Shown here: positions 3,066 through 25,563 of the stretch, piece after piece | Layout of the letters: each line of letters starts with the position of its first letter | How positions within the stretch are numbered: position 1 is the stretch's first letter | Assembly (NCBI GenBank): GCA_028710275.1 | Contig: JAQTUL010000002.1 | Span: 12,855 to 76,854 of the forward strand | Direction: 5' to 3' | DNA: 64,000 nt | From: Candidatus Colwellbacteria bacterium | GTDB lineage: Bacteria; Patescibacteriota; Minisyncoccia; UBA6257; Colwellbacteraceae | Translations under genes and position numbers: made by a program | Notes under the pieces: model-generated | What the model saw: the letters and a program-made list of their open reading frames with translations, nothing else | Told to the model about the DNA's origin: nothing | Databases searched by the model: none

Positions 3066-3146
3066 ATTGAGATTAGATACAGAACTTTTCTATTAAACGG
3101 GTTAATAAAAATTGTTCTCAGTTCTAATTATCAAACTTATTTTATC

Positions 3147-4280
3147 ATGCCACCAAAGAAAACTATAGAAGATTATTATAAGCTTGCTGACAGATTCTGT
3201 ATTACATATGTAGATGAATGCAGATTCCCTAAAAATAGTAGAGAAAAATATAAATGGAAATGTACAGAAGGACACGAGTATATATCTAGTTATAATAACA
3301 TTCAACAAGGAAGAGAGTGTCCTTTATGCGCAGAGAAAAAGAGATTGGAATTCATGAAGACTACAAGAAATACGAAAGAGATGTACGTAGACCTAGGTGA
3401 AGAAAAAGGTTTTGAATTTATCGACGAAAGAGAACCTGTGGGTAATAAGGAACGATATAAATGGCGATGTGGAGATAATCATATATGGGAATCCTCTTAC
3501 AACGATATTCAAGGGGGTCATGGTTGTCCATACTGTTATGGTAATATCCCAAAGACTAAAGAAGATTTTCTAAAGTTAGCAGAACGAAAAGGATTTGAAT
3601 TTATAGATGACAGAGAACCTATAAACAACTCGATAAAATATAAATGGAAATGTAAGAAAGAAGGACATGTTAAAATGTCGGAATATAGAACTATGTTATA
3701 TGCCGGGTGTATGGAATGTTATAATAAAATAAGAGGTGATAAGTCGAGACATACCGAAGAGGACTATTTAAATTTAGCAAAGAAGTTTAATATAGAGTTT
3801 GTCGATATATACAAAAAGACAGATTGTGACGAAAAATATAAATGGAAATGTGAAGAGGGACATATATGGATATCTAATTATCATAAAATATATACAGGAT
3901 ACGGGTGTAATCAATGTTCATCTAATCAAAATGAAAAGTTTTGTACTCGTATATTGGAGAAATTAACAGGTTTTCCTTTTGTAAAGATAAGACCTCCGTG
4001 GTTGGGTAAATTAGAATTGGATGGATATTGTGAAAAATTAAATTTAGCGTTCGAATATCAGGGACTTCAGCATTATGAATACATCCCGTTTTTCCATCAA
4101 AACGATATAGAACGATTTAATGGTCAATTAGAACGTGATATACGAAAGAAAGAATTATGTAAAGAAAACGGTACCATTCTATTATGTATTCCATATCAGT
4201 ATAATTGTCGTAATCCAGAAGGATTAGAACAGTATATTATATCACTCATCAAGTTAGAAGAGGATCTCTTGATTATTTAG
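3147..4280 (+). CDS. zinc-ribbon repeat protein fused to Vsr/DUF559-like PD-(D/E)xK endonuclease domain
   Basis: The first ATG (MPPKK) is at 3147. The upstream part of track ORF 2847-4280 overlaps the minus-strand gene. There are four roughly 55 aa repeats (KYKWKC.EGH..S.Y..I..G.GCP.C). The C-terminus ELDGYCEKLNLAFEYQGLQHY matches the DUF559/Vsr-like endonuclease core. Paralog of 11696-13294. Confidence 0.6.
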   Translation: MPPKKTIEDYYKLADRFCITYVDECRFPKNSREKYKWKCTEGHEYISSYNNIQQGRECPLCAEKKRLEFMKTTRNTKEMYVDLGEEKGFEFIDEREPVGNKERYKWRCGDNHIWESSYNDIQGGHGCPYCYGNIPKTKEDFLKLAERKGFEFIDDREPINNSIKYKWKCKKEGHVKMSEYRTMLYAGCMECYNKIRGDKSRHTEEDYLNLAKKFNIEFVDIYKKTDCDEKYKWKCEEGHIWISNYHKIYTGYGCNQCSSNQNEKFCTRILEKLTGFPFVKIRPPWLGKLELDGYCEKLNLAFEYQGLQHYEYIPFFHQNDIERFNGQLERDIRKKELCKENGTILLCIPYQYNCRNPEGLEQYIISLIKLEEDLLII

Positions 4281-5121
4281 ATGAAAGTTTCTTCTCTAGA
4301 GCATCAAGACGTTGATAAATTAAACGGAGACGCCTCGAATTTGAAATTATGTCCTCCACGTCACTATCGACAGGCCCTTCAACAACCTCCTTCTCGACTG
4401 AAGCCACGTTGTCACTCTTGCGACGGATAGTATGTTGAATTCTCTCATCCTCGGAAGAGTCCTCGGAATCAGAAGAGGACACCGGCGATCGTGAGCGATG
4501 GTACTTCTTAGAACCGGCAGACGAACTATCAGCGGAACTCGATCGAGAGGAACGCTTGGACGCAGGAGTACGGGAAGCAGGAGTTCCCTTGCGACGAGAG
4601 ACAGGGGTCTCCTTATGGTTTCGGGGCTTACGACGATCATCCTCACTCTCCGACTCATCAGACGAGGTGTCGTGACGACGACGGGACGATCGTGGATTCG
4701 GACGACGCGATTGACCATGTGACGATTGACCATGAGACGATTTCTCATTTTCACTATCCGAACTCGCATCCTTACGATCCTTGCGTCGAGGGGATCTCTT
4801 AATGACAAGAGGCTCTTCGTCATCAGACACCTCACTCTTGGACTTCTTATCTCCGGAACGACGATCCGACGACTTTGACTTCTCCTCAACGACATCGTCT
4901 TCCTCCTCAACGTGGGATTCAGAATCCTTCGTCTTCTCGAGAAGAGACTTATTATGATCATTGATAGAGACAAGAAGACCCGGACCACCCTTCAGACGAG
5001 TATTCCAGATACCGTTCCCCTGAAGTTGCTTGACAAAGTCCTTACGCTTAGCAGCATCGTCGAGATTCTCTCCTCGCACAACATAAGATTTCTCACTGTA
5101 CTTTTCATAGTTCATCGGCAT
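4273..5121 (-). CDS. hypothetical protein with long RS/SD/E-rich low-complexity tail
   Basis: 282 aa. ATG verified (MPMNYEK). A roughly 70 aa N-terminal globular part is followed by a Ser/Arg/Asp/Glu-rich tail. The antisense ORFs 4347-4988 and 4498-4722 are compositional artefacts. Confidence 0.55.
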   Translation of the reverse strand: MPMNYEKYSEKSYVVRGENLDDAAKRKDFVKQLQGNGIWNTRLKGGPGLLVSINDHNKSLLEKTKDSESHVEEEDDVVEEKSKSSDRRSGDKKSKSEVSDDEEPLVIKRSPRRKDRKDASSDSENEKSSHGQSSHGQSRRPNPRSSRRRHDTSSDESESEDDRRKPRNHKETPVSRRKGTPASRTPASKRSSRSSSADSSSAGSKKYHRSRSPVSSSDSEDSSEDERIQHTIRRKSDNVASVEKEVVEGPVDSDVEDIISNSRRLRLIYQRLDALEKKLSSK

Positions 5122-5238: not shown

Positions 5239-6213
5239 ATGAAGATTGCATTCCATGTATATCATTTTACATTCAGAGGAAGTGAGATTGCAGCGTTCGA
5301 TTATGCGCTCTTCAACAGGGAGATCTTAAAAAACTCGTCGATTATTGTCATACCGCGAACACAATCACAACCAGAGAATCCTTTAGTCAAGGAGAAATTC
5401 GAAAACGAGTTTCAGATCTACTACTACGACGATCTCGCACACTTAGAGGAGATCTGTAAGAGGGAAACTGTAGATGCGTTATACACTATCAAATACGGAA
5501 CAAAAGATAAGCTACTTCTAAAGGAGATCCCTGTCTTTGTACACTGTGTCTTTACTACCGAGGAACCACATGGAACTGTTTACGCTGGAGTATCTCAAAG
5601 TGTCGCTAGGAGGAATAATAAATGTGAAACCCCCTTTGTAAATCACATGGTCTATCTTCCGGATATCAAGACTAATTTCAGAGATGATCTCGGAATACCT
5701 TCTAATGCAATTGTGTTCGGTCGACACGGTGGTGATGATACGTTTGATCTTCCATTTGTAAAAGAGGCTATCATTGAATTACTCAATGAGAGAAACGATA
5801 TCTTCTTTCTCTTTGCTGTTCGTCCGAGAATGATGAATGATATCGAACACTCACAGATTATATATCTAGATTCATTTACTGATATGAGAATCAAGACAAA
5901 GTTTATCAATACTTGTGATGCTATGATTCATGCTTGTTCATTAGGTGAAAGTTTCGGTCTATCGATACTGGAATTCTGTCATCAGAATAAACCTGTTATA
6001 ACCTGGACAGGAGGCGCATGGCACAAACAACATCATTCAAATCTCGGATCCAAGGGAATCTACTATACCAACAAGACCTCTGTTAAAAAGATTATGAATG
6101 AGTTCTCTCCATCAGTTCACCAGGGAGAGGATTATAAGAGTCTTGTACTTCCTTTTACACCATCTAAAATTATGAGACAATTCGACGATGTGTTTTTGAA
6201 AGCGATAAAATGA
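5239..6213 (+). CDS. glycosyltransferase (GT1/GT4-like)
   Basis: 324 aa. The C-terminal motif GESFGLSILEFCHQNKPVITWTGG resembles the E(x7)E / EGFGL..EAMA.G.PVI signature of GT-B group 1 glycosyltransferases. Confidence 0.5.
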   Translation: MKIAFHVYHFTFRGSEIAAFDYALFNREILKNSSIIVIPRTQSQPENPLVKEKFENEFQIYYYDDLAHLEEICKRETVDALYTIKYGTKDKLLLKEIPVFVHCVFTTEEPHGTVYAGVSQSVARRNNKCETPFVNHMVYLPDIKTNFRDDLGIPSNAIVFGRHGGDDTFDLPFVKEAIIELLNERNDIFFLFAVRPRMMNDIEHSQIIYLDSFTDMRIKTKFINTCDAMIHACSLGESFGLSILEFCHQNKPVITWTGGAWHKQHHSNLGSKGIYYTNKTSVKKIMNEFSPSVHQGEDYKSLVLPFTPSKIMRQFDDVFLKAIK

Positions 6214-7130
6214 TTTATCTATACAGTCCAATTATATCTACAGACACAACAATGTCTAAACCAGTGGAGATCGTCTTCGAGGATGATAAACCTCTGTATT
6301 CATTGTTTGAAAAGACGAAAGTTAACATATTTCAAACAGCTAAAATTATATCATGGAATGTTAACGGACTTCAAGGAATACTTAAGAAAAATAAGAATGG
6401 AGATAAGAAGTCAAGTTCCGATAAAAATGTTCTGCAACATCTTCTAGATACGGAAAAACCGGACATCATCTGCCTACAAGAGATTCGTTGCTCTGATAAA
6501 TTTAAGTGGGAACCTGAAGATCGAATGAAGTGGTATACCTACGAAAACTATTGTCAATCAAAAAAGGGATATTCAGGAACGTTAATCTCTTCGAAAATCA
6601 AGCCTGTAAATGTAACGTATGGTATGGAAGGTTATGATGATGCTGAAGGTCGGGTAATCACCATGGAGTTTTCAAACTTTTTCTTATTGAATGTGTATAG
6701 TCCGAATTCAGGAACATATAGATTAAAATACAGAACACAGGTTTTTGAACCGTCTTTACATCGTCATGTCGCAAATCTTAATAAACCGGTGGTATTGGTG
6801 GGCGATTTGAACTGTACATTTGAAGATATTGATAAGGGAGTATCTAAACGTATTCCGGGAGATTCTGTAGAAGAACAATTGTGTTCCGCCAAATTATTAT
6901 CACAATGTAAACTTGTTGACACATTCAGATATTTACATCCCACGGATAGAATATATTCATGGTTCTATCCGTGGGATAATAAAAATGGATGTAGATTCGA
7001 CTATATTTTAGTTTCTAAAGAATGGATGAATTTTGTGGTAAGTTCAGATATACTGTATTATTCATCGTCTGATCATCTACCGACACAGATATTTTTAGAT
7101 TTCAAGAAAGATATGCGAGATAAAATATAA
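6210..7130 (+). CDS. AP endonuclease / exodeoxyribonuclease III family (EEP fold)
   Basis: WNVNGL, ICLQEI, GYSGT, NVYSPN, VLVGDLN, VDTFRYLHP, YSWF, RFDYILVS and SDHLP match Xth/APE1 blocks. The start overlaps the upstream stop in ATGA. Confidence 0.85.
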   Translation: MIYLYSPIISTDTTMSKPVEIVFEDDKPLYSLFEKTKVNIFQTAKIISWNVNGLQGILKKNKNGDKKSSSDKNVLQHLLDTEKPDIICLQEIRCSDKFKWEPEDRMKWYTYENYCQSKKGYSGTLISSKIKPVNVTYGMEGYDDAEGRVITMEFSNFFLLNVYSPNSGTYRLKYRTQVFEPSLHRHVANLNKPVVLVGDLNCTFEDIDKGVSKRIPGDSVEEQLCSAKLLSQCKLVDTFRYLHPTDRIYSWFYPWDNKNGCRFDYILVSKEWMNFVVSSDILYYSSSDHLPTQIFLDFKKDMRDKI

Positions 7131-11686: not shown

Positions 11687-11726
11687 GAATATCGTATGCC
11701 ATTATGTATCATGGCATACGATATTC
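11687..11726. terminator. hairpin GAATATCGTATGCCAT-tatgtatc-ATGGCATACGATATTC after the Rad50-like gene stop; both candidate ATGs of the next gene lie inside it
   Basis: Perfect 16 bp arms. Confidence 0.45.
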
Positions 11727-13294
11727 AATCTGATAAAATATTAATTGAAAATAAATGTGTTGTGTGTGGAAAGAAATGTAGTTTTAATTATAAAACTCTA
11801 GATTATGGTGTAAGATGTAGGATTCATAAATTAGAAGAAATGGTTAATATATCGAGCCCAGAATATTGTGAAAAACGATTCGTTAAAACGATAGACAACT
11901 TAAAAGGAAAAGTTGTAGGAAAATATACTGGAGATGGAAATCCGGTTGAATGCGTATGTGAAAAAGGTCATGTGTGTCATCCTAGACCAACTCATATAAA
12001 ACAGGGTAGAGGAATGTGTTTTGCATGTTCAGGAAAAGATTCTAAAACCGCTGAAAATAATTTTTACAAAAACATAATTTTGTTGGGTGGTAAAGTTCTC
12101 GGCGAATATACTGGCAATGATAAACCAGTCGAATGTCTATGCTCTAATGGTCATATTTGCAATCCAAGACCGGGAAGTATACAACAGGGGCAAGGAATGT
12201 GTATTATATGCTCGGGATTAGATTCTAAAACCGCTGAAAATAATTTTTACAAAAACATAATTTTGTTGGGCGGTAAAGTTCTGGGAGAATATAATGGTAA
12301 TGATAAACCAGTCGAATGTCTATGTTCTAATGGTCATATTTGTAATCCAAGACCAGGAAGTATACAACAAGGAAAAGGAATGTGTATTATATGCTCGGGA
12401 TTAGATCCTAAAACGGCCGAATATAATTTTTACAAAAATGTAACTTTATTGGGTGGTAAAGTTATAGGTAAATATGTGAATAGCACCACACAAGTAGAAT
12501 GTATTTGTTGTAATAACCATCAGTGTTATTCAAATCCCTCTTCATTACAACAAGGTAAAGGAATGTGCATAATTTGTGCGAAACAGGATCCTAAAACAGC
12601 AGAAGATAATTTTCACAAATATGTGTCTACTTTGGACGGTAAAGTTATAGGTAAATATGTGAATAGCTACACACAAGTAGAATGTATTTGTTCAAACGGG
12701 CATACATGCAACCCGTATCCATGTAATATTTCAAAAGGGTTAAATATATGTAAAATATGTGCAGGACAAGATCTTCAAACATCAACTGATAAATTCATTA
12801 AAAATATACACAAACTAGGAGGAAAAGTTATCGGTACATATATAAATAATCGCATGCGTGTAGAATGTATATGTATTGCTAATCATAAATGTTGGCCGAT
12901 ACCTAGCAGTATTCAACAGGGTCAAGGAATGTGCCCAAAATGTGCTAAAACATCTTTCTCCAAAATTTCATTCGAGTTTTTGGACGGTATCTGTCTCTCG
13001 CAAAAAATTTCTCTACAGACCGCCAAATCAGAGGAAGGAGAATTCAAGATTCCGGACACCAAATACAAGGTTGATGGCTATCACAAAGAGACCAATACTG
13101 TATACGAGTTTCATGGATGTTACTGGCATGGATGTCCAATGTGTTTTGATCCTGAGAAGATGAATGATATATCAAACAAAACGTTCGGTAAGCTACACGA
13201 TAAGACATTACATCGTGAAGAGTTGATAAGGTCAAAAGGATATAATCTTGTAGTAATGTGGGAGTGTGACTGGAAAGAAAAACTTGTGATTTAA
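11696..13294 (+). CDS. zinc-ribbon repeat protein fused to Vsr-like (very-short-patch-repair type) PD-(D/E)xK endonuclease
   Basis: The track start 11669 is TTG and the first ATGs are at 11696 and 11711. There are seven 61 aa repeats (NPVECxCxxGHxCxPRPxxIQQGxGMCxxCSG). The C-terminus YKVDGYHKETNTVYEFHGCYWHGCPMC matches the Vsr GCFWHG block. Paralog of 3147-4280. Confidence 0.7.
   Translation: MPLCIMAYDIQSDKILIENKCVVCGKKCSFNYKTLDYGVRCRIHKLEEMVNISSPEYCEKRFVKTIDNLKGKVVGKYTGDGNPVECVCEKGHVCHPRPTHIKQGRGMCFACSGKDSKTAENNFYKNIILLGGKVLGEYTGNDKPVECLCSNGHICNPRPGSIQQGQGMCIICSGLDSKTAENNFYKNIILLGGKVLGEYNGNDKPVECLCSNGHICNPRPGSIQQGKGMCIICSGLDPKTAEYNFYKNVTLLGGKVIGKYVNSTTQVECICCNNHQCYSNPSSLQQGKGMCIICAKQDPKTAEDNFHKYVSTLDGKVIGKYVNSYTQVECICSNGHTCNPYPCNISKGLNICKICAGQDLQTSTDKFIKNIHKLGGKVIGTYINNRMRVECICIANHKCWPIPSSIQQGQGMCPKCAKTSFSKISFEFLDGICLSQKISLQTAKSEEGEFKIPDTKYKVDGYHKETNTVYEFHGCYWHGCPMCFDPEKMNDISNKTFGKLHDKTLHREELIRSKGYNLVVMWECDWKEKLVI
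12041..12600 (+). repeat. 183 bp (61 codon) in-frame tandem repeats inside CDS 11696-13294; first three copies over 90% identical
   Basis: tctaaaaccgctgaaaataatttttacaaaaacataattttgttggg... recurs at 12041, 12224 and 12407, then in more diverged copies. Confidence 0.85.
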
Positions 13295-13308
13295 GATATC
13301 GAAAAGTG

Positions 13309-13333
13309 ATTTATAACTTGATGAGTTATAAAT
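13309..13333. terminator. hairpin ATTTATAACT-tgatg-AGTTATAAAT between 11696-13294 and 13345
   Basis: Perfect 10 bp arms. Confidence 0.45.
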
Positions 13334-13344
13334 AGTTATCCATC

Positions 13345-14445
13345 ATGTCATCCGTTGAGAAGTCATCGTCGAAGAAGAAATTATCACCCATTTATTGTCT
13401 TGATATTAAAGATGAATATATCAAAAATATTCACAAAGAGATAGAAACTGTGATAGAAGATGAGAAATATAAAATTAAAGATAATGTAGTCCATAATGGT
13501 TGGACTTTGATATCATGTCGCAAAGAGGATAAACCTAATTGGACAAAAAATAATCTCTGTAACGAAGAGTTCTTGAACAAAACAAACCATAATAATAAAA
13601 CATACTTTCACATATATTTTAAACAGTATTCGAGTTCTATTGTTATGATATCATATGGTGGTATAAAAACATATGAAAATAAGAAACTATTCAAGGATAA
13701 AATATCTCTTGATAAAAATTTAATGTTTGAAGAGGAAATTAAAGATTTTGATTCGTTGATCGAGAAAATAGATGAATGTATATCATCTTCCGATAATTTC
13801 GACGATGTAATGACAAAATATTGGAGTGGAAATGTAGGTATTGATGGTGTTTCTGACATTAAAGAAATTGTAAAGGATATTAAGTTCTCAATGTTTGAAT
13901 CGGTAAAACTGTTCGATAAAAAGGTTGCAGAATTTAAAGAAAAATACAAGAATTTGCCATTTCCATTACCAGATTACGATAAAAATGAAGATATTAAAAT
14001 ACAAAAATCAGGGAAAATAAAACAATCTGAAACCGCGTATAATTCTCGTATATGTAAAACCCTCGATTTTATAAACTTGGATTGTGATACAGCAAGCACC
14101 AATGGAATAGAAATTGCTGATATATACAATAAAACTACGAAACAGTTAATTCATGTTAAAAAAGAAGGTGATCTTCGCGTTCATGCATGTCAAGGATTAA
14201 ACTCTGCTCTTTATTTGGATGATCCAAATGAAAAATCAGGTAGGTTTAAGGATATTCATGACATACCGTCCGATCCAAAATCTTTAACGATTGTTTACGC
14301 TATAATTTGTATGAACAATAAAGTCGATCGATATTTCGATGGAAATACACCTATGAAGGATAAAATAAGTTTAGGTACTATAATGTCCGTATTAGAGTTC
14401 GTAGGATATACGACGGAATTGTTTTATATCAATGCGATAAATTGA
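13345..14445 (+). CDS. hypothetical protein
   Basis: 366 aa. ATG verified. Lys/Asn-rich. No motif. Confidence 0.5.
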   Translation: MSSVEKSSSKKKLSPIYCLDIKDEYIKNIHKEIETVIEDEKYKIKDNVVHNGWTLISCRKEDKPNWTKNNLCNEEFLNKTNHNNKTYFHIYFKQYSSSIVMISYGGIKTYENKKLFKDKISLDKNLMFEEEIKDFDSLIEKIDECISSSDNFDDVMTKYWSGNVGIDGVSDIKEIVKDIKFSMFESVKLFDKKVAEFKEKYKNLPFPLPDYDKNEDIKIQKSGKIKQSETAYNSRICKTLDFINLDCDTASTNGIEIADIYNKTTKQLIHVKKEGDLRVHACQGLNSALYLDDPNEKSGRFKDIHDIPSDPKSLTIVYAIICMNNKVDRYFDGNTPMKDKISLGTIMSVLEFVGYTTELFYINAIN

Positions 14446-14456
14446 TTTCAAATATT

Positions 14457-15371
14457 CTAAACATAAGTCTTCTCAACCAGTCGTTTATCAAACTCATTTC
14501 CCATTCCCTTATTCTCGTTGTACAGATCACTATACTTTTCCAATAGTTCACTCTCGTCGTCGCTGATTTCTGCTAACTCAGCACATTTGATCTTCTTGAA
14601 CTCCTTCAGTTTTGTACTCATAATAGGAAGTATGGCTTCCTTTAGTCTCTTCGCTTGTATATCATTAACTACATTTCCTTTATCGTCGTGGTAAATGAAA
14701 TTCTTTCTATTCTTATCCGTACATTTATAGATTAGATTTCCAGATTCATCTCTGATTACATTATCGAGCACCCAATCAGCTTGACCAATCCCACCTCGTT
14801 CATAATGTTTAATTGTGTATGTATCTTTTATAGATTCTAGTCTTTCTTGTGAGAGATTAAGTGAGTTCATAGTTATATTCTTCGCTTTGATATGTGTTGT
14901 GGTAGTTGTGGTACCAACCTTCTCTATTAGTCGTTTACTCTGTTCCTGAGCGAATAGATGTTCTTTGTTGTATAACTCAGTATAGATCTCTTTCTCTCGT
15001 TTATCTCTCTCCTTTTCGATAAGAATTTCTGTTGATTTCTTATATTCCGATAATATGGTTTCGTAATGTTGTTTTTGAATTTCAAGATTTGTCTCGTACC
15101 GACGCTTTTGTTTTTCAATCTCTTGGTTTTTATTTTCAATTATTGTCTCATATCGTTGTGTAACACATTTCACCGGACAGTCGATCTCATGTTTAATTCT
15201 ACTATTATTCGTACGATGTTCTTTTTTACAGTAAGAGCATTCGTTCTTACTGTCCGGAAGATCAACAATCAATACATTTTGTTTATCTAGACAGTATTTT
15301 GTCTTTGCTTGATGTATTTGAAGATTTTGCTTAGTTGTTAATTCCTTATTGCAGAATTGACACTTGAACAT
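14457..15371 (-). CDS. paralogous-family protein, N-terminal C2H2-like zinc finger plus conserved C-terminal domain
   Basis: 304 aa. The N-terminus C.FC..L.TK.NL.IHQAKTKYC and the C-terminal 150 aa are near-identical to 40645-41514 (NITMNSLNLSQERLESIKDTYTIKHYERGG.GQADWV...KEFKKIKCAELAEISDDESELLE). Confidence 0.6.
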   Translation of the reverse strand: MFKCQFCNKELTTKQNLQIHQAKTKYCLDKQNVLIVDLPDSKNECSYCKKEHRTNNSRIKHEIDCPVKCVTQRYETIIENKNQEIEKQKRRYETNLEIQKQHYETILSEYKKSTEILIEKERDKREKEIYTELYNKEHLFAQEQSKRLIEKVGTTTTTTHIKAKNITMNSLNLSQERLESIKDTYTIKHYERGGIGQADWVLDNVIRDESGNLIYKCTDKNRKNFIYHDDKGNVVNDIQAKRLKEAILPIMSTKLKEFKKIKCAELAEISDDESELLEKYSDLYNENKGMGNEFDKRLVEKTYV

Positions 15372-15506
15372 TATTATGACAGTTTATGATAGATTTATTA
15401 TCATAAACCATAATAAACGACCATAAAACTTATGTTTATGATAGATTTATGTCCATAAACTTTTTCGGAGTTTCCGAAAAATAGGATTGCAGTGATCTCC
15501 GAAAGT

Positions 15507-15665
15507 CATAATTTAGAATTAAAGTTGAAAGGAGGATGTTTTCGGATTATGACTTTCGGAGATAAAAGGCTATCCCGTTTCTAAAACTATTTGAAATTGA
15601 AAAAAGTATATCAAACTCTCTCAATATTTGTGAGAGAGGCGACCTCTCCGCCGAAAAACTTTCAG
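15507..15665. repeat. conserved about 130 bp intergenic element with nested inverted repeats, copy A (copy B at 41638-41795)
   Basis: gttttcggattatgactttcggag...tttctaaaactatttgaaattgaaaaaagtatatcaaactctctcaatatttgtgagagaggcgacctctccRccgaaaaactttc is near-identical at both loci. Internal hairpins CTCCGAAAGTCATAAT/ATTATGACTTTCGGAG and CTCTCTCA/TGAGAGAG. Both copies lie 190-290 bp upstream of the paralogous minus-strand genes. Confidence 0.85.
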
Positions 15666-15749
15666 ATAGCGGAAATGGTTGTGTATCTCTGAACTCCGAA
15701 AAACTTTGGTGATAACTTTCGTTTACAAGTTATCACCAAAGGTCGATAG

Positions 15750-15808
15750 ATTGTTGAGCTAGATAAACAGGTTAAATAGTTGATGGTATAATTATCTAGC
15801 TCAACAAT
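15750..15808. promoter_or_regulatory. long hairpin ATTGTTGAGCTAGATAA-n25-TTATCTAGCTCAACAAT ending on the ATG of 15807
   Basis: Perfect 17 bp arms. Lies in the divergent region after the conserved 130 bp element. Confidence 0.4.
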
Positions 15809-18242
15809 GGACAAAATCTTAAGCATTAGAAACAGAGGTGAGAAGATTAGAGGATTGTATATTGGAAAAAATAAGGGACAGCCTCGAATTATTAAATTCG
15901 GATATTCTGATTGTCTTCAAGATCGTATACGTGATAGTGCATATCAAACAGGATTTTTTCACGAATGGGATTTTACTTTTTATATTCCCGATGATCAATC
16001 AAGAGATTCAAGGATCGATGAACAAACTATACTCAAGTATATTAAAGACGAATTAAAGTTGACGTCAGGATATGGAGTTGAAACTTTTCAATATTTCAAA
16101 CCCCTTTTATACAGCAATATTGTAAAAAGTATTTCTAATAAATTAAACCGAGATTGTGGAGTACATACTAAGATAAAAGAATCTGAAGCGAATTTTAAAG
16201 GGTATAAAGTGGTTGATTATAAAAATATGAGATGGGAGGGACCTTTCGATACAGATATCGGTATGAAATGTGGAATGTGTGAAAAGAATAATATAACGAA
16301 AAAATTTTTTATATTGACACATCCTGATCGTAAAGATATTCTAATGAATGTGGGTAAAGACTGTTTAAAAAAATTAAAAGAAACATATAAAATTAAACAT
16401 AACAATAAAAGGGTTCAATTAGACATAGACTTTTTTGGAGACGATATTCCTATAGATAGTACTAATAACGATCAAACAATAACAAATACCACTATACTAG
16501 ATACGTATATGGATGAATTTGTATACAAGACCCCTAGTATCAATTACTGTAAAAATATTATATCAACCCCGGATACATCAAATTATACGTCAGTTAGATA
16601 CGCGATGTCGGTTCTCTTATTTGATAGGTTTATCAAAAAATGTAGTAAAGGAAATGATCGAGTTAGTATTTCTGTTATTGTAAAGGAATTAAACGATGAA
16701 TGTAAAACATCTATATTTGACGAATATTTAATCAAATCACTAGCAACTGGTATTTTCGCTATTGAAGAAAATACCTTGGTGGGATCGTACTTTAATAACA
16801 TGTATCTTGCCACTATTACCTTTTTGGACACAGCATTAAATAACAATGTTAAATTATCTTACAATCCACAAACCGATGATAAAGATAAACTTAACAAAAA
16901 GCAGTTCAACGCGATTGACAACTTTCGTAACAATAAATTATTGTTTTTAACCGGTAGAGGTGGTACAGGAAAAACAAAAGTATCGACTAATATAATTAAA
17001 TCTATAAATTCGGATAAAAATATGGTTTACATATTAGCTCCATATAACACAATATTACAACGACAAAAAGATGCGTTACATCTTGATGTTTATGATGATA
17101 AGAGTAATATCATATTCAAAACTGTATCAAGTTTTTTGATTGGATTAAAAACTAAAAAAATCAAGATAAATCGCCCTTCTTTGATAGTGATCGATGAATT
17201 TCCTCTTGTTGATATAGTATCGATATATAAGTTGTGTACCGGACTGGAATCCGTAAAACATTTGATAAAGTTTTTATTTTTGGGAGATCCTAATCAGTTG
17301 CCGTCGATAAATTTATCATATTGGTTCGGACAGTATATAGAATATTTTAGAGCTAATAAAATATTTAGTGTTCTGACAGAACAAATGAGAAATAAAGATG
17401 AAACACAAAACATATTTTCCTCTAAATTTTTATCGTTTGATGAAAATTTAAATGCTGTTGTGTCAGGTGTATATGATGAAAAATCATTTAATACATTATG
17501 CTCGGATTCAAAAATAGAACTTGACATGTACAATTCTAATAGAATTATAGAACTTTATATACAAGGGTATCAATATATTACATATACAAATGACATACGT
17601 AAGATGATTAACGAGACTATTCATAAATATATTACAGATGATATGTGTCCCGAATGTACAAAGGAATTTATATGTGACAGTTTAAAATTTTGTAGAATGT
17701 GTGTAGATAAACATAAATATATTGTCACGGAATCTATAATAACCGATGATAGTACAATTCATAAGTCTTCAATTATAAATGGACGCGATATCGTGTATAA
17801 GGATGATAAACTCGTTATTTCAGGTGTTGACATAACACTAACACCTGAAATGTTTACTCATCATCTTAGTTTATCATATTGTTTAACTATTAACAAATCT
17901 CAAGGGTCAGAATATCCAAAAGTATGTTATATTATAAATAGTTATCACTTGTCTAATTCTATACATTATCAGAAAATTTATACAGCAGTAACTCGGCATG
18001 GAAAGACATTAAAAATACTATATTATCAAAACAATAAACTGTTACATAAAAGTTCCAGTATCGGGGAAACTAAACTGTTACATAAAAGTTCCAGTAGAGA
18101 AAAAACTAAAATGCCTAAGGGTACATATGAAGGAAAAACTTATGAATGGGTATATGAAAATTTTCCATATTATGCAACGATGGCCAAACCTCCTGAATGG
18201 ATGAACGATTATATCGATTGGAAGTTAACGAAGATAAATTAA
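15807..18242 (+). CDS. GIY-YIG/T5orf172-like N-domain fused to SF1 (RecD/Pif1-type) helicase
   Basis: N-terminus GLYIGKN..PRIIKFGYSDCLQDRIRD (GIY-YIG-like). Walker A LTGRGGTGKTKV, Walker B LIVIDEFP, motif VI CLTINKSQGSEYPKV. Confidence 0.7.
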   Translation: MDKILSIRNRGEKIRGLYIGKNKGQPRIIKFGYSDCLQDRIRDSAYQTGFFHEWDFTFYIPDDQSRDSRIDEQTILKYIKDELKLTSGYGVETFQYFKPLLYSNIVKSISNKLNRDCGVHTKIKESEANFKGYKVVDYKNMRWEGPFDTDIGMKCGMCEKNNITKKFFILTHPDRKDILMNVGKDCLKKLKETYKIKHNNKRVQLDIDFFGDDIPIDSTNNDQTITNTTILDTYMDEFVYKTPSINYCKNIISTPDTSNYTSVRYAMSVLLFDRFIKKCSKGNDRVSISVIVKELNDECKTSIFDEYLIKSLATGIFAIEENTLVGSYFNNMYLATITFLDTALNNNVKLSYNPQTDDKDKLNKKQFNAIDNFRNNKLLFLTGRGGTGKTKVSTNIIKSINSDKNMVYILAPYNTILQRQKDALHLDVYDDKSNIIFKTVSSFLIGLKTKKIKINRPSLIVIDEFPLVDIVSIYKLCTGLESVKHLIKFLFLGDPNQLPSINLSYWFGQYIEYFRANKIFSVLTEQMRNKDETQNIFSSKFLSFDENLNAVVSGVYDEKSFNTLCSDSKIELDMYNSNRIIELYIQGYQYITYTNDIRKMINETIHKYITDDMCPECTKEFICDSLKFCRMCVDKHKYIVTESIITDDSTIHKSSIINGRDIVYKDDKLVISGVDITLTPEMFTHHLSLSYCLTINKSQGSEYPKVCYIINSYHLSNSIHYQKIYTAVTRHGKTLKILYYQNNKLLHKSSSIGETKLLHKSSSREKTKMPKGTYEGKTYEWVYENFPYYATMAKPPEWMNDYIDWKLTKIN

Positions 18243-18288
18243 AGTGATTTTATAGTATCATTACTATAAAATACCATCAACCAACACA
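18241..18288. repeat. 45 bp hairpin-containing element AAAGTGATTTTATAGTATCWTTACTATAAAATACCATCAACCA, copy 1 (copy 2 at 18571-18614)
   Basis: Near-identical sequence directly upstream of the two consecutive ATGs at 18289 and 18615. Contains the palindrome TTTTATAGTA/TACTATAAAA. Related hairpins lie at 35714-35741 and 32064-32088. Confidence 0.8.
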
Positions 18289-18546
18289 ATGAGTTCTCTT
18301 ATCAATAGTATCATCATGAAATGGAGAAAGCAGGGAAACTTCATCAGATTTATAGATGGAGATAAGAGAAACTGTACAGTGAGTAATTTGTGTTATGTAT
18401 CATTCGAAGATGCCATGAATCATATCGATGATTGGGCTGTTGACTGGGATGCTGAACTAACGAAAAATGAGATTCGGTTGGTCAAGACTAAGAAATTTCG
18501 AGATGGATTGGTGTTCAAGGCTCCTGAACCGGCATTGAAGAAATAG
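18289..18546 (+). CDS. small hypothetical protein
   Basis: 85 aa. ATG verified. Preceded by the same 45 bp hairpin element as the next gene. Confidence 0.35.
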   Translation: MSSLINSIIMKWRKQGNFIRFIDGDKRNCTVSNLCYVSFEDAMNHIDDWAVDWDAELTKNEIRLVKTKKFRDGLVFKAPEPALKK

Positions 18547-18614
18547 TTTCTTTGTATATGAAACAGAATTAAAGTGATTTTATAGTATCTTTACTATAAA
18601 ATACCATCAACCAC

Positions 18615-20717
18615 ATGGACTACAAATATCAATCGTATTGTTGGTTCAATAATCTCGATTCGGAATCCAATGAAGAATCTCCTTTATATCAGAGGAAAAA
18701 ATGGTATCTTTTTGAACTCTATATGTGTTACAAAACATGTGTAATACCCTGGCATTTTATTTCCATTGATACTAAGGAAAAATGGAACGTTCACGTAAAA
18801 GACCACGGTATCGATGGGATTACAGAAGATGGAACTATTTCTGTTCAAGCCAAGTATAGAAACAACACAAGTATAACATACACAGAGTTGTGTACATTTT
18901 TTGGGTTAAGTTCTATATTAGATTGTAAACAGAAAATACTGGGGTGTTTGCAGACATCGAAGATATCAAAACAAAATATACAGTACATGGACCGATTTGG
19001 TATGACCAACCAAATCGTCGATGATGGCTGGGAAGATGAAATGAAGAAGTTGAGTGACCAATATGTTATCCCGGAAATAGTTGAGACCACCATCAAATTA
19101 CGTCCTTATCAAATCGAGGCATTGAATGTATGTAAACAAGAGAAGAAATCTATAAAAATTTCTTTTCCATGTGGAGGAGGAAAATCGATAGTGATTATAG
19201 AAGTAGGATTGTGGTGTAAAGAGAACAACCGAAAATGTGTGATATTTGTTCCTGGATTAACGTTGATGAATCAGTTGTATAAAATGTTTAAAACGTATAG
19301 TAAAAAGAAACTAAATATTTTGCGAATCGGTACAGGATTTAATGAAATGGAGAATGAGTATGATATTATTATTTGTGTATACAACAGTTGGAAAAAGGTT
19401 GATGAAATATGTGAGATAAGTGAATCTTGTTGTATCGTTGACGAAGGTCATCATCTAGAAAAGTTTGAAGATGAGAGTGAGGAAGAGAAAAAAGAATCTG
19501 ATGATGATTTTATTACGTTTGAAGATGAAGGAGAATCTGAAAAAGGACATCTTGAAGGAATATCTAGTCTCTCGTTCCAAAAAGAAATACACTTTAGCGC
19601 TACATTTGGTAACTCTAACATCGATTATACATATACATTAGAAGATGCTATTGAACAAGGATATCTATGCGATTACGATATTATTGTACCGGTTGTAGAT
19701 AAAGAGATATCAGTTGACATTCCTAAAGTTCTTGTTGATCTTCTTTATAAAAGACAAGATCTAACTAAAATTTTAGCATACTGTAATAGCAGAGATAGTG
19801 GGAAAAAGTTTACTCAACTTTTAAATGACAATGGAATAAAATCTAAATTTGTAGATGGAACTATGAACATAAAGAAGAGACAAGAGATTATCAATTCGTT
19901 TACAAAAGGAGATATCAGAGTAATTGTGTCTGTTTATGTATTTGGAGAAGGACTAGATATTCCATGCGCTGATACATGTTTATTTGTTGAACCCAGACAT
20001 AGTCGTATAAATATTATCCAATGTATTGGACGAATTATGAGATTACATAAAAATAAAACTATAGGACATGTAATTTTACCAACAGATAGAGAAGACACTT
20101 GTGTAAAATTCTTTAAGATATTAAGAGACTGGGATTCGAGAGTGAAAAGTTCTTTGAAAGAAAAGAGATTAGGACGAATCACATTCGAGAACATAAAAGA
20201 GATTGAAATTGAAACCGGAGACGTCGATTATTACATTGATATTTACAATAGATTTGGAGAGATAAAAGGATGGGATGATAAATACTCGATCTATAGACGA
20301 GCTGTAGTAGAGGTAGGAATTAAATTCGTTTACTCTACCGTATTTGAAGGTGAAAAAATTGGTTCATGGGAAAGTGACCAAAGAAAGATCTACAAAAAAG
20401 AAAAGTTATCTGATGAAAGAAAAGAAAAGTTGGATAAAATTCCCCGATGGAAAGCGTGGAGAGAAAAAGAGGATTTATCTGAGAAGAAAGAGAAGAAAAA
20501 TCTTACTTGGGATGATAAATACGAGATTTATTCACGAGCTGTAGTAGAGGTAGGAAATAAATTCGATCGATCTACCGTATTTGAAGGTGAAAAAATTGGG
20601 AATTGGGAATCTAAACAAAGAATGAACTACAAAACCGAAAAATTGTCCGATGAAAGAAAAGAAAAGTTAGATAAAATTTCCCGATGGAGAGAGTGGAGAG
20701 AAAAGAGTGGGTGTTAA
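18615..20717 (+). CDS. restriction-res-like N-domain plus SF2 DEAD/DEAH helicase with two C-terminal helicase-associated (HA) domains
   Basis: N-terminus res/Mrr-like (ISIDTKEKWNVHVKDHGIDGITEDGTISVQAKYR). Motif I FPCGGGKS, motif II IVDEGHH. Two 79 aa repeats (YSIYRRAVVEVG.KF..STVFEGEKIG.WES.QR..YK.EKLSDERKEKLDKI.RW) match the HA domain pattern. Confidence 0.7.
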   Translation: MDYKYQSYCWFNNLDSESNEESPLYQRKKWYLFELYMCYKTCVIPWHFISIDTKEKWNVHVKDHGIDGITEDGTISVQAKYRNNTSITYTELCTFFGLSSILDCKQKILGCLQTSKISKQNIQYMDRFGMTNQIVDDGWEDEMKKLSDQYVIPEIVETTIKLRPYQIEALNVCKQEKKSIKISFPCGGGKSIVIIEVGLWCKENNRKCVIFVPGLTLMNQLYKMFKTYSKKKLNILRIGTGFNEMENEYDIIICVYNSWKKVDEICEISESCCIVDEGHHLEKFEDESEEEKKESDDDFITFEDEGESEKGHLEGISSLSFQKEIHFSATFGNSNIDYTYTLEDAIEQGYLCDYDIIVPVVDKEISVDIPKVLVDLLYKRQDLTKILAYCNSRDSGKKFTQLLNDNGIKSKFVDGTMNIKKRQEIINSFTKGDIRVIVSVYVFGEGLDIPCADTCLFVEPRHSRINIIQCIGRIMRLHKNKTIGHVILPTDREDTCVKFFKILRDWDSRVKSSLKEKRLGRITFENIKEIEIETGDVDYYIDIYNRFGEIKGWDDKYSIYRRAVVEVGIKFVYSTVFEGEKIGSWESDQRKIYKKEKLSDERKEKLDKIPRWKAWREKEDLSEKKEKKNLTWDDKYEIYSRAVVEVGNKFDRSTVFEGEKIGNWESKQRMNYKTEKLSDERKEKLDKISRWREWREKSGC
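20271..20700 (+). repeat. 237 bp in-frame tandem duplication encoding the two HA domains of helicase 18615-20717
   Basis: tgggatgataaatac...gctgtagtagaggtaggaa.taaattcg...ctaccgtatttgaaggtgaaaaaattgg at 20271 and 20508. Confidence 0.8.
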
Positions 20718-20974
20718 GAGTTATGAAAATAATTATTTTAAAGTGATCACAGTCGATATTAAAGGACTTAATAAATTTAAGGTAATCGATCTTAAAAATA
20801 GCGTTCGACAATAAATCTGTCTGATGTAAAGCAGGTGAAAGCAATATTAAACGTCTCTTGTACCATTCAGAATTAAATATTAACCTCTGATCATATTTAA
20901 ACACCAAGAAGTGATAATTGAGAATGATAAAATTATTGGTTTAATAAATTTTATTTGGATATTGATAATTGATA

Positions 20975-22561
20975 ATGGATAATTCCTCCTCATCAGGATC
21001 CGATTCGCTAGTCGACATAAGTCTGATTGAATCCAACATAAATGAAGCTGAAGTTGATAGAGAGAGATTGAGTGTGAAATTGTGGGTAAGAAAATACGGA
21101 TGTAAACTGGATCAATATATGTCCGCAATAAAAGTTCTGAAAAATAAAGGGTCAGCGTCGGATTCAATTATTATGTTTGGAAATTTAACCGTTAAGAAGC
21201 AGGTTATAAGTGTGGTATTCAAAATGGTATTCAAACCTAAAAATAAATTAAATAACTCTCTTTTAGTTGAACAACAGATATACGAGAACGTTATTTCAAA
21301 TCTGATCAATAATTATCATACACCCCACATAGTTAATTACATAGGAACAGTTAATTCTTGTGTCACAGATACATTTACGGAGGATCTCTCTCTTGCTGAA
21401 AGTAAAAATTTCGAGGAGGCTAAAAGTAAAATTCGAATGTCGGGATTTGACTCTTCAGTGTTGGATATAATGATCTTAGAGAAATCATCGGGATACACTC
21501 TTAATCAATGTGTAGATGAAGAGGTGTTATCGACTCTTGATAAATTTAAAGTTCTCTTTCAAATTCTGTATACACTACTATGTTTCGAACGAATAAAATT
21601 AACACATAACGATCTTCATTTTAACAATATATTTATTGATAAATTAGATAAACCGATAGAGAGAATATATTATCTTGATAGTACACGATGGGTGAAATTT
21701 ACAACATCATACGATGCAAAAATATATGACTTCGATAGAGGAGCAATCTATCATCCGGCCGTAGATAGAAACCTTACTATTGATAAACAATATTGTGAGG
21801 CATATGAAACATGTAATAGTTTCGACCCTAAGAGAGATTTAGGATCAGTAATCGCAGGATATCTATTGAACGAACTTAATCCTGAATTTATGGAATTTCT
21901 ATTCCCCCTTACGAGTCAGAAATTCCGAGATGATATAGCGAACCGAGACTATTTTCAACTTAACTCGTCACACAGCAGATATACAGATGAGGATCTGAAA
22001 CCGACAGCAGAGTATTTAAATCTCGTCGTAGCTAAAATAAGTGACGCCGTCACAGGAGAGGGTAAAAATAACGGAAATATCTACACTCTTCCGGAAAAGA
22101 GAAACCACACATTTTGGTACCCAAGTACATCACAAACTCATAAAAATTCAAAAGTGGATATGAGTGACGAATCGGTGAACAATTACGATAAAGAGTATAT
22201 CAATGATGTATTTATTGACGCCAGAGATATTTTAAATCTAAAACTATACAATAAGGAACTGACCGCCATTTATGAAGAACATAAACAACCATCATATCAC
22301 CAGACGTGTAAATTACTGTTCACCGAGTTTCTCAGAAAGAAAAACGTCCACAATAAATATCATGAAACGTATATGTTAGCGTGTTTTATATTGTGTTTAC
22401 CGTTTACATATAAATTCACGTCTGACGAAATGGTTTATTTTATCAATGATTGGTTACCCCGAAATCGAGATCCTACTTTCGGAAGTAAGTTGTCGATGTT
22501 TATTTCTGATGTATGGAATACGTTTGATAACTTACTTCCGGTTAAAATGGTTAGAATGTAA
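20975..22561 (+). CDS. protein kinase-like (atypical Ser/Thr kinase)
   Basis: The track start 20969 is TTG and the ATG is at 20975. Catalytic-loop-like LTHNDLHFNNIFI (HxDxxxxN) and DFG-like KIYDFDRGA. Confidence 0.55.
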   Translation: MDNSSSSGSDSLVDISLIESNINEAEVDRERLSVKLWVRKYGCKLDQYMSAIKVLKNKGSASDSIIMFGNLTVKKQVISVVFKMVFKPKNKLNNSLLVEQQIYENVISNLINNYHTPHIVNYIGTVNSCVTDTFTEDLSLAESKNFEEAKSKIRMSGFDSSVLDIMILEKSSGYTLNQCVDEEVLSTLDKFKVLFQILYTLLCFERIKLTHNDLHFNNIFIDKLDKPIERIYYLDSTRWVKFTTSYDAKIYDFDRGAIYHPAVDRNLTIDKQYCEAYETCNSFDPKRDLGSVIAGYLLNELNPEFMEFLFPLTSQKFRDDIANRDYFQLNSSHSRYTDEDLKPTAEYLNLVVAKISDAVTGEGKNNGNIYTLPEKRNHTFWYPSTSQTHKNSKVDMSDESVNNYDKEYINDVFIDARDILNLKLYNKELTAIYEEHKQPSYHQTCKLLFTEFLRKKNVHNKYHETYMLACFILCLPFTYKFTSDEMVYFINDWLPRNRDPTFGSKLSMFISDVWNTFDNLLPVKMVRM

Positions 22562-24148: not shown

Positions 24149-24150
24149 AA

Positions 24151-25194: not shown

Positions 25195-25563
25195 ATTTCA
25201 TGTCACTATTAACAGAATAATATATTCCTTTGAATGAATATATTAATCACAATGAAGTTCTTTATACAGAACAGAAACTGTATCTGTAGCGGCTGTCGGC
25301 CAGAAATATGGAAGGATTCCATGTATCGTTGTTTTCACACTACAGATAATCATTCTTGTAGATATTGAGAATGCTCTCTTCATATGATCAAAATAGCTTA
25401 TGTTATTCTCTGTGAGATGAGAGAAAAATCTTGAATTAATCGCGTCGATTCGTTGGGCCATTCTTTCTTATACTTTCAATTATTTAAAACGACAACGATG
25501 AAAAAGTGAGATCCCGAATAATATTGTAGTTGAAATCACTACACTTTACCAACCACCAACACT

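What the first reader, a model, noticed from the sequence alone, without database searches (positions are those of the whole stretch)
11696..13294. Paralogous zinc-ribbon repeat plus Vsr-like nuclease fusion with freshly amplified 183 bp internal repeats
Two genes, 3147-4280 and 11696-13294, fuse arrays of 55-61 aa Cys/His modules to a C-terminal Vsr/DUF559-type PD-(D/E)xK nuclease domain. One has four repeats (KYKWKC.EGH...GCP.C) and the other seven (ECxC..GHxCxPRP..IQQG.GMC..CSG). The nuclease domain in the second reads YEFHGCYWHGCPMC, which is Vsr-like. The first three repeats of the second gene are over 90% identical at the DNA level with a 183 bp period, implying recent expansion. An array of DNA-binding-like modules next to a nicking nuclease suggests a modular sequence-specific endonuclease, either a homing enzyme or a defence or anti-host nuclease.
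Basis: partly seen in the sequence, partly recalled or inferred. Interest (0 to 1): 0.7.

Follow-up and report, generated by a model that had tools for sequence, protein, structure and literature searches.

The report
Zinc-finger-array homing-type nucleases in giant virus
Two genes in this giant-virus contig join a string of CapR-type zinc-finger DNA-binding modules to a Vsr-like nuclease, an architecture already described for selfish homing endonucleases, so this is a new example of a known kind.

Summary
The two genes are real, but the repeat details need correcting. Gene A (11696-13294) has six 61-aa repeats, not seven. The N-terminal Cys cluster is a separate EsV-1-7 motif. Only repeats 2 and 3, plus the start of 4, are near-identical in DNA (94%). 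Repeat 1 is about 61% identical. Repeats 2 and 3 differ at 9 synonymous and 2 non-synonymous codons (dS about 0.28), so the duplication is not fresh.

The same repeat array occurs in thousands of proteins. It is fused to at least five nuclease types, and the repeat number varies (2-8).

In two related viral contigs, gene B's neighbours sit 53-60 bp apart. Gene B is therefore a roughly 1.16 kb insertion. Gene A sits at a synteny breakpoint where one relative carries a different nuclease gene.

The literature from 2021 to 2026 already describes CapR-array homing endonucleases, including Vsr-like ones. I rate this a free-standing homing-type endonuclease: a new member of a known kind, of modest interest.

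The parts
11696..13294 (+). Gene A: 532-aa CapR-array/Vsr-like endonuclease gene (NCBI PHG66_00810)
   Evidence: Intact ORF. It matches P0001 exactly. It hits PHROG endonuclease families phrog_559 (2e-44) and phrog_681 (8.6e-22).
11765..11851 (+). N-terminal EsV-1-7 cysteine-rich motif (aa 24-52), not a seventh repeat
   Evidence: Pfam PF19114, E 2.6e-5, 24.4 bits against a cut-off of 25. The same N-terminus occurs in P0006, P0040 and P0061.
11855..12037 (+). Repeat R1 (aa 54-114), a divergent copy
   Evidence: HMM E 1.2e-24. It is 61-62% DNA-identical to R2 and R3.
12038..12403 (+). Repeats R2 and R3 (aa 115-236), the near-identical pair
   Evidence: 94.0% DNA and 96.7% protein identity, with 9 synonymous and 2 non-synonymous codon differences. 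dS 0.28, omega 0.05. The high-identity tract extends to about 12463.
12404..12952 (+). Repeats R4-R6 (aa 237-419)
   Evidence: HMM E 1e-26 to 1e-28. Pairwise DNA identity is 57-71%. In the AF2 model each unit is a 14-residue helix followed by a small beta/zinc-knuckle unit.
12953..13291 (+). Vsr-like PD-(D/E)xK nuclease domain (aa 420-532). D460, E471, H473 and H478 form the putative active site. C475, C480, C483 and C524 form the putative zinc site.
3147..4280 (+). Gene B: 377-aa paralogue with four DUF4379/CapR modules and a Vsr/DUF559-like nuclease (NCBI PHG66_00770)
   Evidence: PHROG hits: phrog_559 at 6e-39 and phrog_9084 'homing endonuclease' at 3.9e-8.
3156..3929 (+). Gene B repeats 1-4 (3156-3344, 3366-3548, 3552-3731, 3747-3929)
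   Evidence: Family HMM E 1e-15 to 2e-21. Pfam DUF4379 x4 and CapR x3.
3924..4256 (+). Gene B nuclease domain (LELDGY...FEYQGLQH...RDxxK)
3113..4272 (.). Approximate extent of the gene B insertion relative to related viral contigs L003 and L006
   Evidence: Homologues of window genes (-)2598-3065 and (-)4273-5121 are adjacent in L003 (53 bp apart) and L006 (60 bp apart). Intergenic homology ends near window 3112 and resumes at the neighbour's stop codon at 4273.

Best explanation
Genes A and B are free-standing, homing-endonuclease-type selfish genes in a giant-virus (NCLDV-like) genome.

Each protein is built like beads on a string. It carries a tandem array of CapR/DUF4379-type modules of about 61 aa: six in A and four in B. 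Each module is one alpha-helix plus a treble-clef zinc finger. Together the modules are inferred to read a long DNA target. They place a C-terminal Vsr/EDxHD-like PD-(D/E)xK nuclease on the DNA, and this domain cuts it. In A the putative active site is D460, E471, H473 and H478, with a Vsr-type Cys4 zinc site.

In a co-infection with a relative that lacks the gene, cutting the empty site and repairing it by recombination would copy the gene and nearby DNA into that site. Unequal recombination between repeats changes the module number and content, and so the target specificity.

What is shown: the domain identities and folds, conservation of the catalytic residues, the insertion polymorphism of gene B, gene A's position at a synteny break, variable module number among near-identical alleles, and shuffling with other nuclease domains.

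What is inferred: DNA binding by these particular repeats, cleavage activity, nick versus double-strand break, and actual homing.
For: **Repeats**
- Gene B passes Pfam DUF4379 (64 bits against 24.5) and CapR (46 against 24).
- The A-type and B-type repeat profiles align at 98.6% probability, E 8.7e-16.
- CapR zinc fingers bind DNA and occur in arrays in phage HEGs (10.1101/2020.11.28.402263; 10.1101/2023.03.23.533998).

**Nuclease**
- Vsr is the only PDB sequence hit.
- The Vsr residues D51, H64, H69 and the zinc ligands are conserved. The acidic residue at Vsr F62, typical of EDxHD enzymes, is present (alignment; PMC3239194).

**Shuffling**
- The same repeats are fused to five C-terminal types among the 107 sequences typed (the 106 hits plus gene B): Vsr-like 32, FD...ELDGxQH 44, LELDGY 5 (four hits plus gene B), T5orf172-like 10 and EVDExxH 3.

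**Copy-number change**
- Alleles with 99-100% identical C-termini carry 6, 5 or 4 repeats (P0005, P0012, P0021).

**Mobility**
- Gene B is absent from the orthologous site in L003 and L006.
- Gene A directly follows the conserved ATPase gene, at the start of an 11-kb block absent from L003 and L006. L003 carries a different nuclease gene (E-type plus SWIB) at that spot.
- The homologue P0005 lies in an unrelated neighbourhood of another giant virus.

**Other**
- The window also holds two intein homing endonucleases.
- Both genes hit PHROG endonuclease and HEG families and give no significant PADLOC hit: none for gene A, and one weak hit for gene B (CARF3--CARF, E 0.0039, no matched stretch).
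- The exact architecture is published as a large outgroup of EDxHD/Vsr HEGs (PMC12350094).
Against: - There is no biochemical evidence for this protein or any giant-virus member.
- Gene A lacks the Vsr D97 / I-Bth0305I D222 equivalent (it has T504). It also deviates from the family motif IQHAENGGE, reading LQTAKSEEGE, so reduced or altered activity is possible.
- For gene A no precise empty site could be defined. Homology to relatives stops at the ATPase stop codon, so its mobility rests on context only.
- Presence/absence could in principle reflect deletion in the relatives rather than insertion here.
- Strong purifying selection on R2 and R3 (omega 0.05) shows that function is maintained. 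That is equally compatible with a domesticated role.
Confidence: 0.7

Rival explanations
1. The gene is a domesticated DNA-binding protein. The CapR array serves as a sequence-specific regulator or genome-processing factor for the virus, like PLE CapR or the CasPRs. The nuclease domain is vestigial or repurposed, and the gene no longer homes.
For: CapR domains act as transcriptional repressors in PLE and in CasPR anti-CRISPRs (10.1101/2020.11.28.402263; 10.64898/2026.02.23.707548). There is strong purifying selection on the duplicated repeats. Gene A departs from the family's IQHAENGGE motif and lacks a D97 equivalent.
Against: The core catalytic residues D460, E471, H473 and H478 and the zinc ligands are intact. 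Known domesticated CapR proteins have lost the nuclease domain. Gene B shows an insertion polymorphism.
Confidence: 0.12
2. The gene is a conflict nuclease. The enzyme targets the DNA of the host, of competing giant viruses or of virophages (exclusion, defence or offence), rather than promoting its own spread.
For: It has the same architecture as a targeted nuclease. Phage HEG-related nucleases are known to be repurposed against satellites (10.1101/2023.03.23.533998). The genome holds several paralogues with different nuclease heads (P0040, P0118).
Against: Neither gene gives a significant match to a PADLOC defence family: none for gene A, and one weak hit for gene B (CARF3--CARF, E 0.0039, no matched stretch). 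No immunity or partner gene is evident beside either gene. The insertion pattern between conserved genes is what homing predicts. This function can also coexist with homing, so it is not a strict alternative.
Confidence: 0.12
3. The gene is an RNA-binding or RNA-processing protein of the RAP/FASTK type. Its zinc-ribbon repeats bind RNA, as in mitoribosomal DUF4379/RAP proteins.
Against: RAP domains share the Vsr fold, so the hits follow from the fold alone. The closest sequence relatives and PHROG families are phage and viral DNA endonucleases and HEGs. CapR is a demonstrated DNA binder.
Confidence: 0.03
4. The gene is a true Vsr-type T:G mismatch repair endonuclease, as some automatic annotations of homologues say.
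For: Some sources name homologues 'very-short-patch-repair endonuclease'. Vsr is the best PDB match.
Against: TIGR00632 scores 14.3 bits against a cut-off of 97.85. D97 is not conserved. The 366-aa zinc-finger array and the EsV-1-7 motif have no counterpart in Vsr. The gene is patchily distributed and inserted.
Confidence: 0.02

Closest known systems
CapR-like-array + EDxHD/Vsr-like homing endonucleases of phage group II introns (PMC12350094, NAR 2025)
   Same: They have three to five ~60-aa domains related to Pfam CapR/DUF4379/DUF723, followed by a ~100-aa Vsr-like nuclease. The paper describes them as a large, mostly unannotated outgroup of EDxHD/Vsr HEGs with thousands of members. Genes A and B fit this description domain for domain.
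   Different: The genes here are free-standing, not intron-encoded, and lie in a giant-virus genome. Gene A has six modules plus an N-terminal EsV-1-7 Cys motif. Its nuclease keeps the Vsr zinc site.
T5orf172 (GIY-YIG-like) HEGs with repeated CapR/DUF723/DUF4379 zinc fingers in ICP1 and other phages (10.1101/2023.03.23.533998), and PLE CapR
   Same: They have the same DNA-binding module in tandem, 'beads on a string' arrays. Recombination between intragenic repeats changes the copy number. The HEGs sit at boundaries of genetic exchange. Ten homologues of gene A carry a T5orf172-like C-terminus.
   Different: The nuclease domain of A and B is Vsr-like PD-(D/E)xK, not T5orf172/GIY-YIG.
I-Bth0305I, EDxHD homing endonuclease (PDB 3R3P; PMC3239194)
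   Different: I-Bth0305I uses NUMOD2/HTH motifs, not zinc fingers. It lacks the Vsr zinc site, which gene A keeps. Gene A lacks the final Asp of the EDxHD motif.
E. coli Vsr (PDB 1VSR/1CW0)
   Same: It is the best structural and only sequence match in the PDB. D51, H64, W68, H69 and the zinc ligands are conserved in gene A.
   Different: Vsr is a single-domain mismatch-repair nickase. D97 is replaced by Thr in gene A. Vsr has no DNA-binding array, and gene A scores far below the TIGR00632 cut-off.
Marseilleviridae 'putative restriction endonuclease' with 4 DUF4379 domains (Lausannevirus/Insectomime ISTM_159; PMC5513546)
   Same: This giant-virus protein has four DUF4379 modules plus a restriction-endonuclease-like domain, which is gene B's architecture. 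BFVD hits include Marseillevirus, Klosneuvirus, Orpheovirus and Fadolivirus proteins.
   Different: It is annotated only as a restriction endonuclease. No mobility analysis has been reported.

Membership tests
CapR-array / Vsr-like HEG outgroup (PMC12350094) | Several tandem ~60-aa CapR/DUF4379/DUF723-like zinc-finger domains | tested here: met
   Gene B has Pfam DUF4379 x4 and CapR x3 above the cut-offs. Gene A has six repeats that align to B-type repeats at 98.6%.
CapR-array / Vsr-like HEG outgroup (PMC12350094) | C-terminal ~100-aa Vsr/EDxHD-like nuclease domain | tested here: met
CapR-array / Vsr-like HEG outgroup (PMC12350094) | Mobile-element behaviour: within an intron or intein, or free-standing with presence/absence between related genomes | tested here: met
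   Gene B has empty sites in L003 and L006. Gene A is only at a synteny breakpoint, with a different nuclease gene at that spot in L003. This is suggestive, not exact.
CapR-array / Vsr-like HEG outgroup (PMC12350094) | Site-specific DNA cleavage and homing | not testable with these tools
   This needs protein expression, cleavage assays on empty-site DNA and co-infection crosses.
EDxHD homing endonucleases (I-Bth0305I type, PMC3239194) | Composite motif E...D...x...H...D (Vsr E25, D51, H64 position, H69, D97) | tested here: not met
   In gene A, D460 matches D51, H473 matches H64 and H478 matches H69. D97 aligns to T504, and Thr is nearly invariant across the family. E449 is only a candidate for E25. 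Gene B's type keeps an invariant RDxxK Asp.
EDxHD homing endonucleases (I-Bth0305I type, PMC3239194) | N-terminal NUMOD2/HTH DNA-binding region | tested here: not met
   No NUMOD or HTH hits were found. The DNA-binding region consists of CapR-type zinc fingers.
Vsr mismatch endonuclease (TIGR00632) | Score above the curated family cut-off | tested here: not met
   14.3 bits against a cut-off of 97.85, E 0.037.
Vsr mismatch endonuclease (TIGR00632) | Structural zinc site (C66, H71, C73, C117) | tested here: met
   C475, C480, C483 and C524 occupy the aligned positions (alignment). The Cys residues are conserved in most family members.
Pfam DUF4379 / CapR (PF14311 / PF21817) | Direct HMM match above the gathering score | tested here: not met
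   This applies to gene A. The full-length protein shows no DUF4379 or CapR hit at E<=1, and a single repeat gives no Pfam hit at all at E<=10. It is a divergent subfamily reached only by profile-profile comparison. Gene B does meet this feature.
T5orf172 HEGs with CapR domains | T5orf172/GIY-YIG-like nuclease domain | tested here: not met
   Genes A and B have no such domain. Ten homologues with the same repeats do carry the KFGI[TS] T5orf172-like C-terminus.

The most novel reading that the evidence does not exclude
The 61-aa CapR-type modules may form a programmable, one-module-per-DNA-segment recognition code, comparable to zinc-finger or TALE arrays. In 60 within-protein pairs of recently duplicated repeats, differences pile up at a few zinc-finger loop positions. 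These are consensus positions 27, 39, 43, 45, 46 and 51, with 30-40 differences each. Helix positions that are equally variable between proteins show only 3-10 differences each. This would fit specificity-determining residues under diversifying selection. Module gain and loss between near-identical alleles would then retarget the nuclease. Giant viruses would be a rich natural library of such arrays.
Probability: 0.2. Interest if true: 0.7.

Novelty: new member of a known kind. Interest (0 to 1): 0.3.

Why it matters
- It gives names and a likely function to two 'hypothetical proteins', and to thousands of relatives: 8,976 cluster representatives at E<=0.001.
- It shows that the CapR-array/Vsr-like homing-endonuclease class described in phages is also active in giant-virus genomes. 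One clean insertion polymorphism supports this.
- One copy marks the edge of an 11-kb variable island. This matches the phage observation that nuclease genes sit at the boundaries of genetic exchange.
- The repeat arrays could be mined as modular DNA-binding scaffolds.
- The NCBI source MAG, labelled as a CPR bacterium, is probably mis-binned viral DNA.

Tried and rejected
- **Seventh repeat in gene A.** Rejected. The family HMM finds six repeats, and the N-terminal Cys cluster matches EsV_1_7_cys.
- **Pfam BRCT, PTCB-BRCT and Rubredoxin_C hits on the repeats**. I treated these as spurious. They cover only ~30-40 aa around 'LGGKV', and for gene A they fall below the cut-offs. The model shows a helix plus a zinc knuckle, not a BRCT fold.
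- **IMG/VR scans with the two neighbouring proteins.** They found no relatives.
- **Exact-sequence look-up of gene A's contig.** It is not on record.
- **Aligning the DNA after the ATPase stop codon across relatives.** There is no homology, so no exact empty site can be defined for gene A.
- **The dispersed palindrome as a target.** Copies lie at about 24.4, 27.7-28.0 and 61.3 kb, not beside either gene. I found no link.
- **Literature search on 'CapR / treble clef / Vsr'.** It returned only irrelevant papers.
- **Defence-system membership.** Neither gene gives a significant PADLOC match.

Full report
**1. What is in the sequence**

The window carries two intact ORFs on the + strand. Gene A is 11696-13294 (532 aa) and gene B is 3147-4280 (377 aa). 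Both match proteins of one NCBI MAG contig of 90.6 kb exactly: PHG66_00810 and PHG66_00770, labelled 'Candidatus Colwellbacteria'.

The gene content of the window is that of a giant virus (NCLDV-like), not a CPR bacterium:
- a DHFR-thymidylate synthase fusion
- a RING plus TRAF zinc-finger protein
- an OGFr_N protein
- a Pif1 helicase interrupted by a LAGLIDADG intein
- a 1656-aa ORF with a PI-SceI-like intein

The relatives of both genes also lie on giant-virus-like contigs.

**2. The repeats**

Gene A has six units of exactly 61 aa (183 bp), at aa 54-419 or DNA 11855-12952. A six-frame scan of the window with family HMMs finds exactly these six units and the four units of gene B, and nothing else.

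The Cys-rich N-terminus of gene A is not a seventh repeat. It matches the EsV-1-7 cysteine-rich motif, E 2.6e-5.

At the DNA level only R2 and R3 are near-identical, at 94.0%. R1 is 61-62% identical to them, and the other pairs are 50-71%. The high-identity tract runs from about 12025 to 12280 against 12208 to 12463. That covers R2, R3 and the first third of R4, which explains TRF's '2.6 copies, 89%'.

R2 and R3 differ at 9 synonymous and 2 non-synonymous codons. This gives dS about 0.28, dN 0.014 and omega about 0.05. The duplication is therefore not fresh, and both copies have been kept under purifying selection.

**3. What the repeats are**

Gene B's repeats pass the Pfam thresholds for DUF4379 ('probable treble-clef zinc finger', 64 bits) and the CapR homology domain (46 bits).

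Gene A's repeats get no direct DUF4379 or CapR hit in Pfam. However, a profile of 300 A-type repeats aligns to a profile of B-type repeats with 98.6% probability, E 8.7e-16, over 56 columns. They are a divergent subfamily of the same module.

The AlphaFold2 model of R5, R6 and the nuclease has pLDDT 89. It shows each unit as a 14-residue helix followed by a small beta/zinc-knuckle unit and a short helix.

The literature identifies this module:
- It is the DNA-binding zinc finger of the satellite repressor CapR. Mutating its cysteines abolishes repression (10.1101/2020.11.28.402263).
- It occurs in arrays in phage T5orf172 homing endonucleases, described as 'beads on a string', with recombination between intragenic repeats (10.1101/2023.03.23.533998).
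- It occurs in the DNA-binding anti-CRISPRs called CasPRs (10.64898/2026.02.23.707548).

**4. The nuclease domains**

Mapping the alignment onto Vsr numbering (E. coli Vsr sequence recalled from memory; active-site roles from PMC3239194) gives:

| Gene A | Vsr |
|---|---|
| D460 | D51 |
| E471 | F62 (acidic in EDxHD enzymes) |
| H473 | H64 |
| W477 | W68 |
| H478 | H69 |
| C475, C480, C483, C524 | zinc site |
| T504 | D97 |

Thr at the D97 position is nearly invariant in the family. Gene A therefore has the Vsr zinc site and the EDxHD-type extra acid, but not the last Asp of the EDxHD motif. This fits the published description of an 'outgroup' of the Vsr/EDxHD family.

Both proteins hit the same PHROG endonuclease families. 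Gene B also hits one named 'homing endonuclease'. Neither has a significant PADLOC defence hit: gene A has none, and gene B has only one weak hit (CARF3--CARF, E 0.0039, no matched stretch).

**5. The family**

An exhaustive phmmer search finds 8,976 cluster representatives at E<=0.001 and 4,635 at E<=1e-10. BFVD holds 233 viral structures at E<=0.001. They come from giant viruses (Klosneuvirus, Orpheovirus, Fadolivirus, Marseillevirus, Barrevirus) and from phages, some annotated as homing endonucleases.

- Vsr-like: 32
- FD...ELDGxQH: 44
- gene B's LELDGY type: 5 (four hits plus gene B)
- T5orf172-like: 10
- EVDExxH: 3

Alleles with 99-100% identical C-termini carry 6, 5 or 4 repeats (P0005, P0012, P0021). 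Others pair 8 with 5, or 7 with 4.

In 60 within-protein pairs of similar repeats, differences concentrate in the zinc-finger loops. Consensus positions 27, 39, 43, 45, 46 and 51 show 30-40 differences each. Helix positions that vary just as much between proteins show only 3-10. These pairs are not independent, so this is a lead and not a test.

**6. Mobility**

Three related viral contigs were found through the neighbouring SMC-like ATPase, at 67-75% identity.

In L003 and L006, the homologues of window genes (-)2598-3065 and (-)4273-5121 are adjacent, 53 and 60 bp apart. In the window they are separated by gene B. Intergenic homology runs to about window 3112 and resumes at the neighbour's stop codon at 4273. 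The insertion is thus about 1.16 kb: the ORF plus a leader of about 34 bp.

Gene A starts 36 bp after the conserved ATPase gene. It opens a block of about 11 kb (11696-22561) that L003 and L006 lack. In L003 the same position holds a different nuclease gene, an E-type domain fused to SWIB. Homology stops at the ATPase stop codon, so no exact empty site can be defined for gene A.

A 52%-identical homologue lies in a quite different neighbourhood of another giant virus. The same MAG has further paralogues with other nuclease heads (P0040, P0118).

**7. Interpretation and comparison**

The best-supported reading is a free-standing homing-type endonuclease. The CapR array supplies target recognition and the Vsr-like domain does the cutting. 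Recombination between repeats changes the specificity.

This is exactly the architecture reported in 2025 for HEGs in phage group II introns. That paper describes three to five CapR/DUF4379/DUF723-like domains plus an EDxHD/Vsr-like nuclease, with thousands of unannotated relatives (PMC12350094). It also parallels the T5orf172 CapR-array HEGs that sit at the boundaries of genetic exchange (10.1101/2023.03.23.533998). A four-DUF4379 'restriction endonuclease' was already noted in Marseilleviridae (PMC5513546).

The finding is therefore a new member of a known kind. The additions here are:
- the giant-virus setting
- a clean insertion polymorphism
- the EsV-1-7 N-terminal motif
- the mixed Vsr/EDxHD active-site signature

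Cleavage, nick versus double-strand break, and homing itself remain inferred. I give the main explanation a confidence of 0.7. Domestication and a conflict-nuclease role are the main rivals, at about 0.12 each.

Noticed in passing
whole window (e.g. 28543-31805, 41957-45112, 53419-58389): The NCBI source record is a MAG named 'Candidatus Colwellbacteria' (locus tags PHG66_). The gene content is giant-virus-like: a DHFR-TS fusion, a RING plus TRAF protein, OGFr_N and intein-bearing genes. The contig is probably mis-binned viral DNA.
   Followed up: partly
41957-45112 and 53419-58389: There are two more homing elements. One is a LAGLIDADG intein inside a Pif1-like helicase. The other is a PI-SceI-like (Hom_end/Hint) intein inside a 1656-aa ORF whose host protein has no Pfam or PDB match.
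   Followed up: partly
27677-27818, 24369-24426, 27980-28037, 61267-61343: A dispersed unit of about 42 bp has the palindromic core GTGGGATCGTATCCCAC. It is tandem x3 at 27.7 kb and has scattered copies elsewhere. A second dispersed element lies at 765-808 and 41843-41886. Neither is next to gene A or B.
   Followed up: no
14462-15663 and 40653-41795: There is a segmental duplication at 86-88% nucleotide identity. It covers paralogous 304-aa and 289-aa genes on the - strand and their upstream regions. One copy lies inside the variable island that begins with gene A.
   Followed up: no
L003 12549-13196: In the closest related contig, the slot right after the ATPase gene holds a 215-aa protein. 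It joins an E-type (gene B-like) nuclease domain to a SWIB domain and has no zinc-finger repeats. This is an unusual fusion.
   Followed up: partly
proteins P0097, P0102, P0103 (hits): The same Vsr-like module (IQHAxNGGE...VDGY...YEFHGCYWHGCPKC...WEC) is embedded in protein-primed family-B DNA polymerases (PF03175). In P0103 it lies between the exonuclease and polymerase parts.
   Followed up: no
20271-20704: A 237-bp tandem duplication at 85% identity lies at the 3' end of the SNF2/DEAD-type helicase gene 18615-20717. It corresponds to two 'helicase-associated' (HA) domains.
   Followed up: no
6210-7130 and 24136-27432: Further genes are present in the window but absent from the syntenic relatives L003 and L006. 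They are an Exo_endo_phos nuclease/phosphatase, a DUF3626 protein and an OGFr_N protein. The region is a mosaic of conserved blocks and variable inserts.
   Followed up: partly
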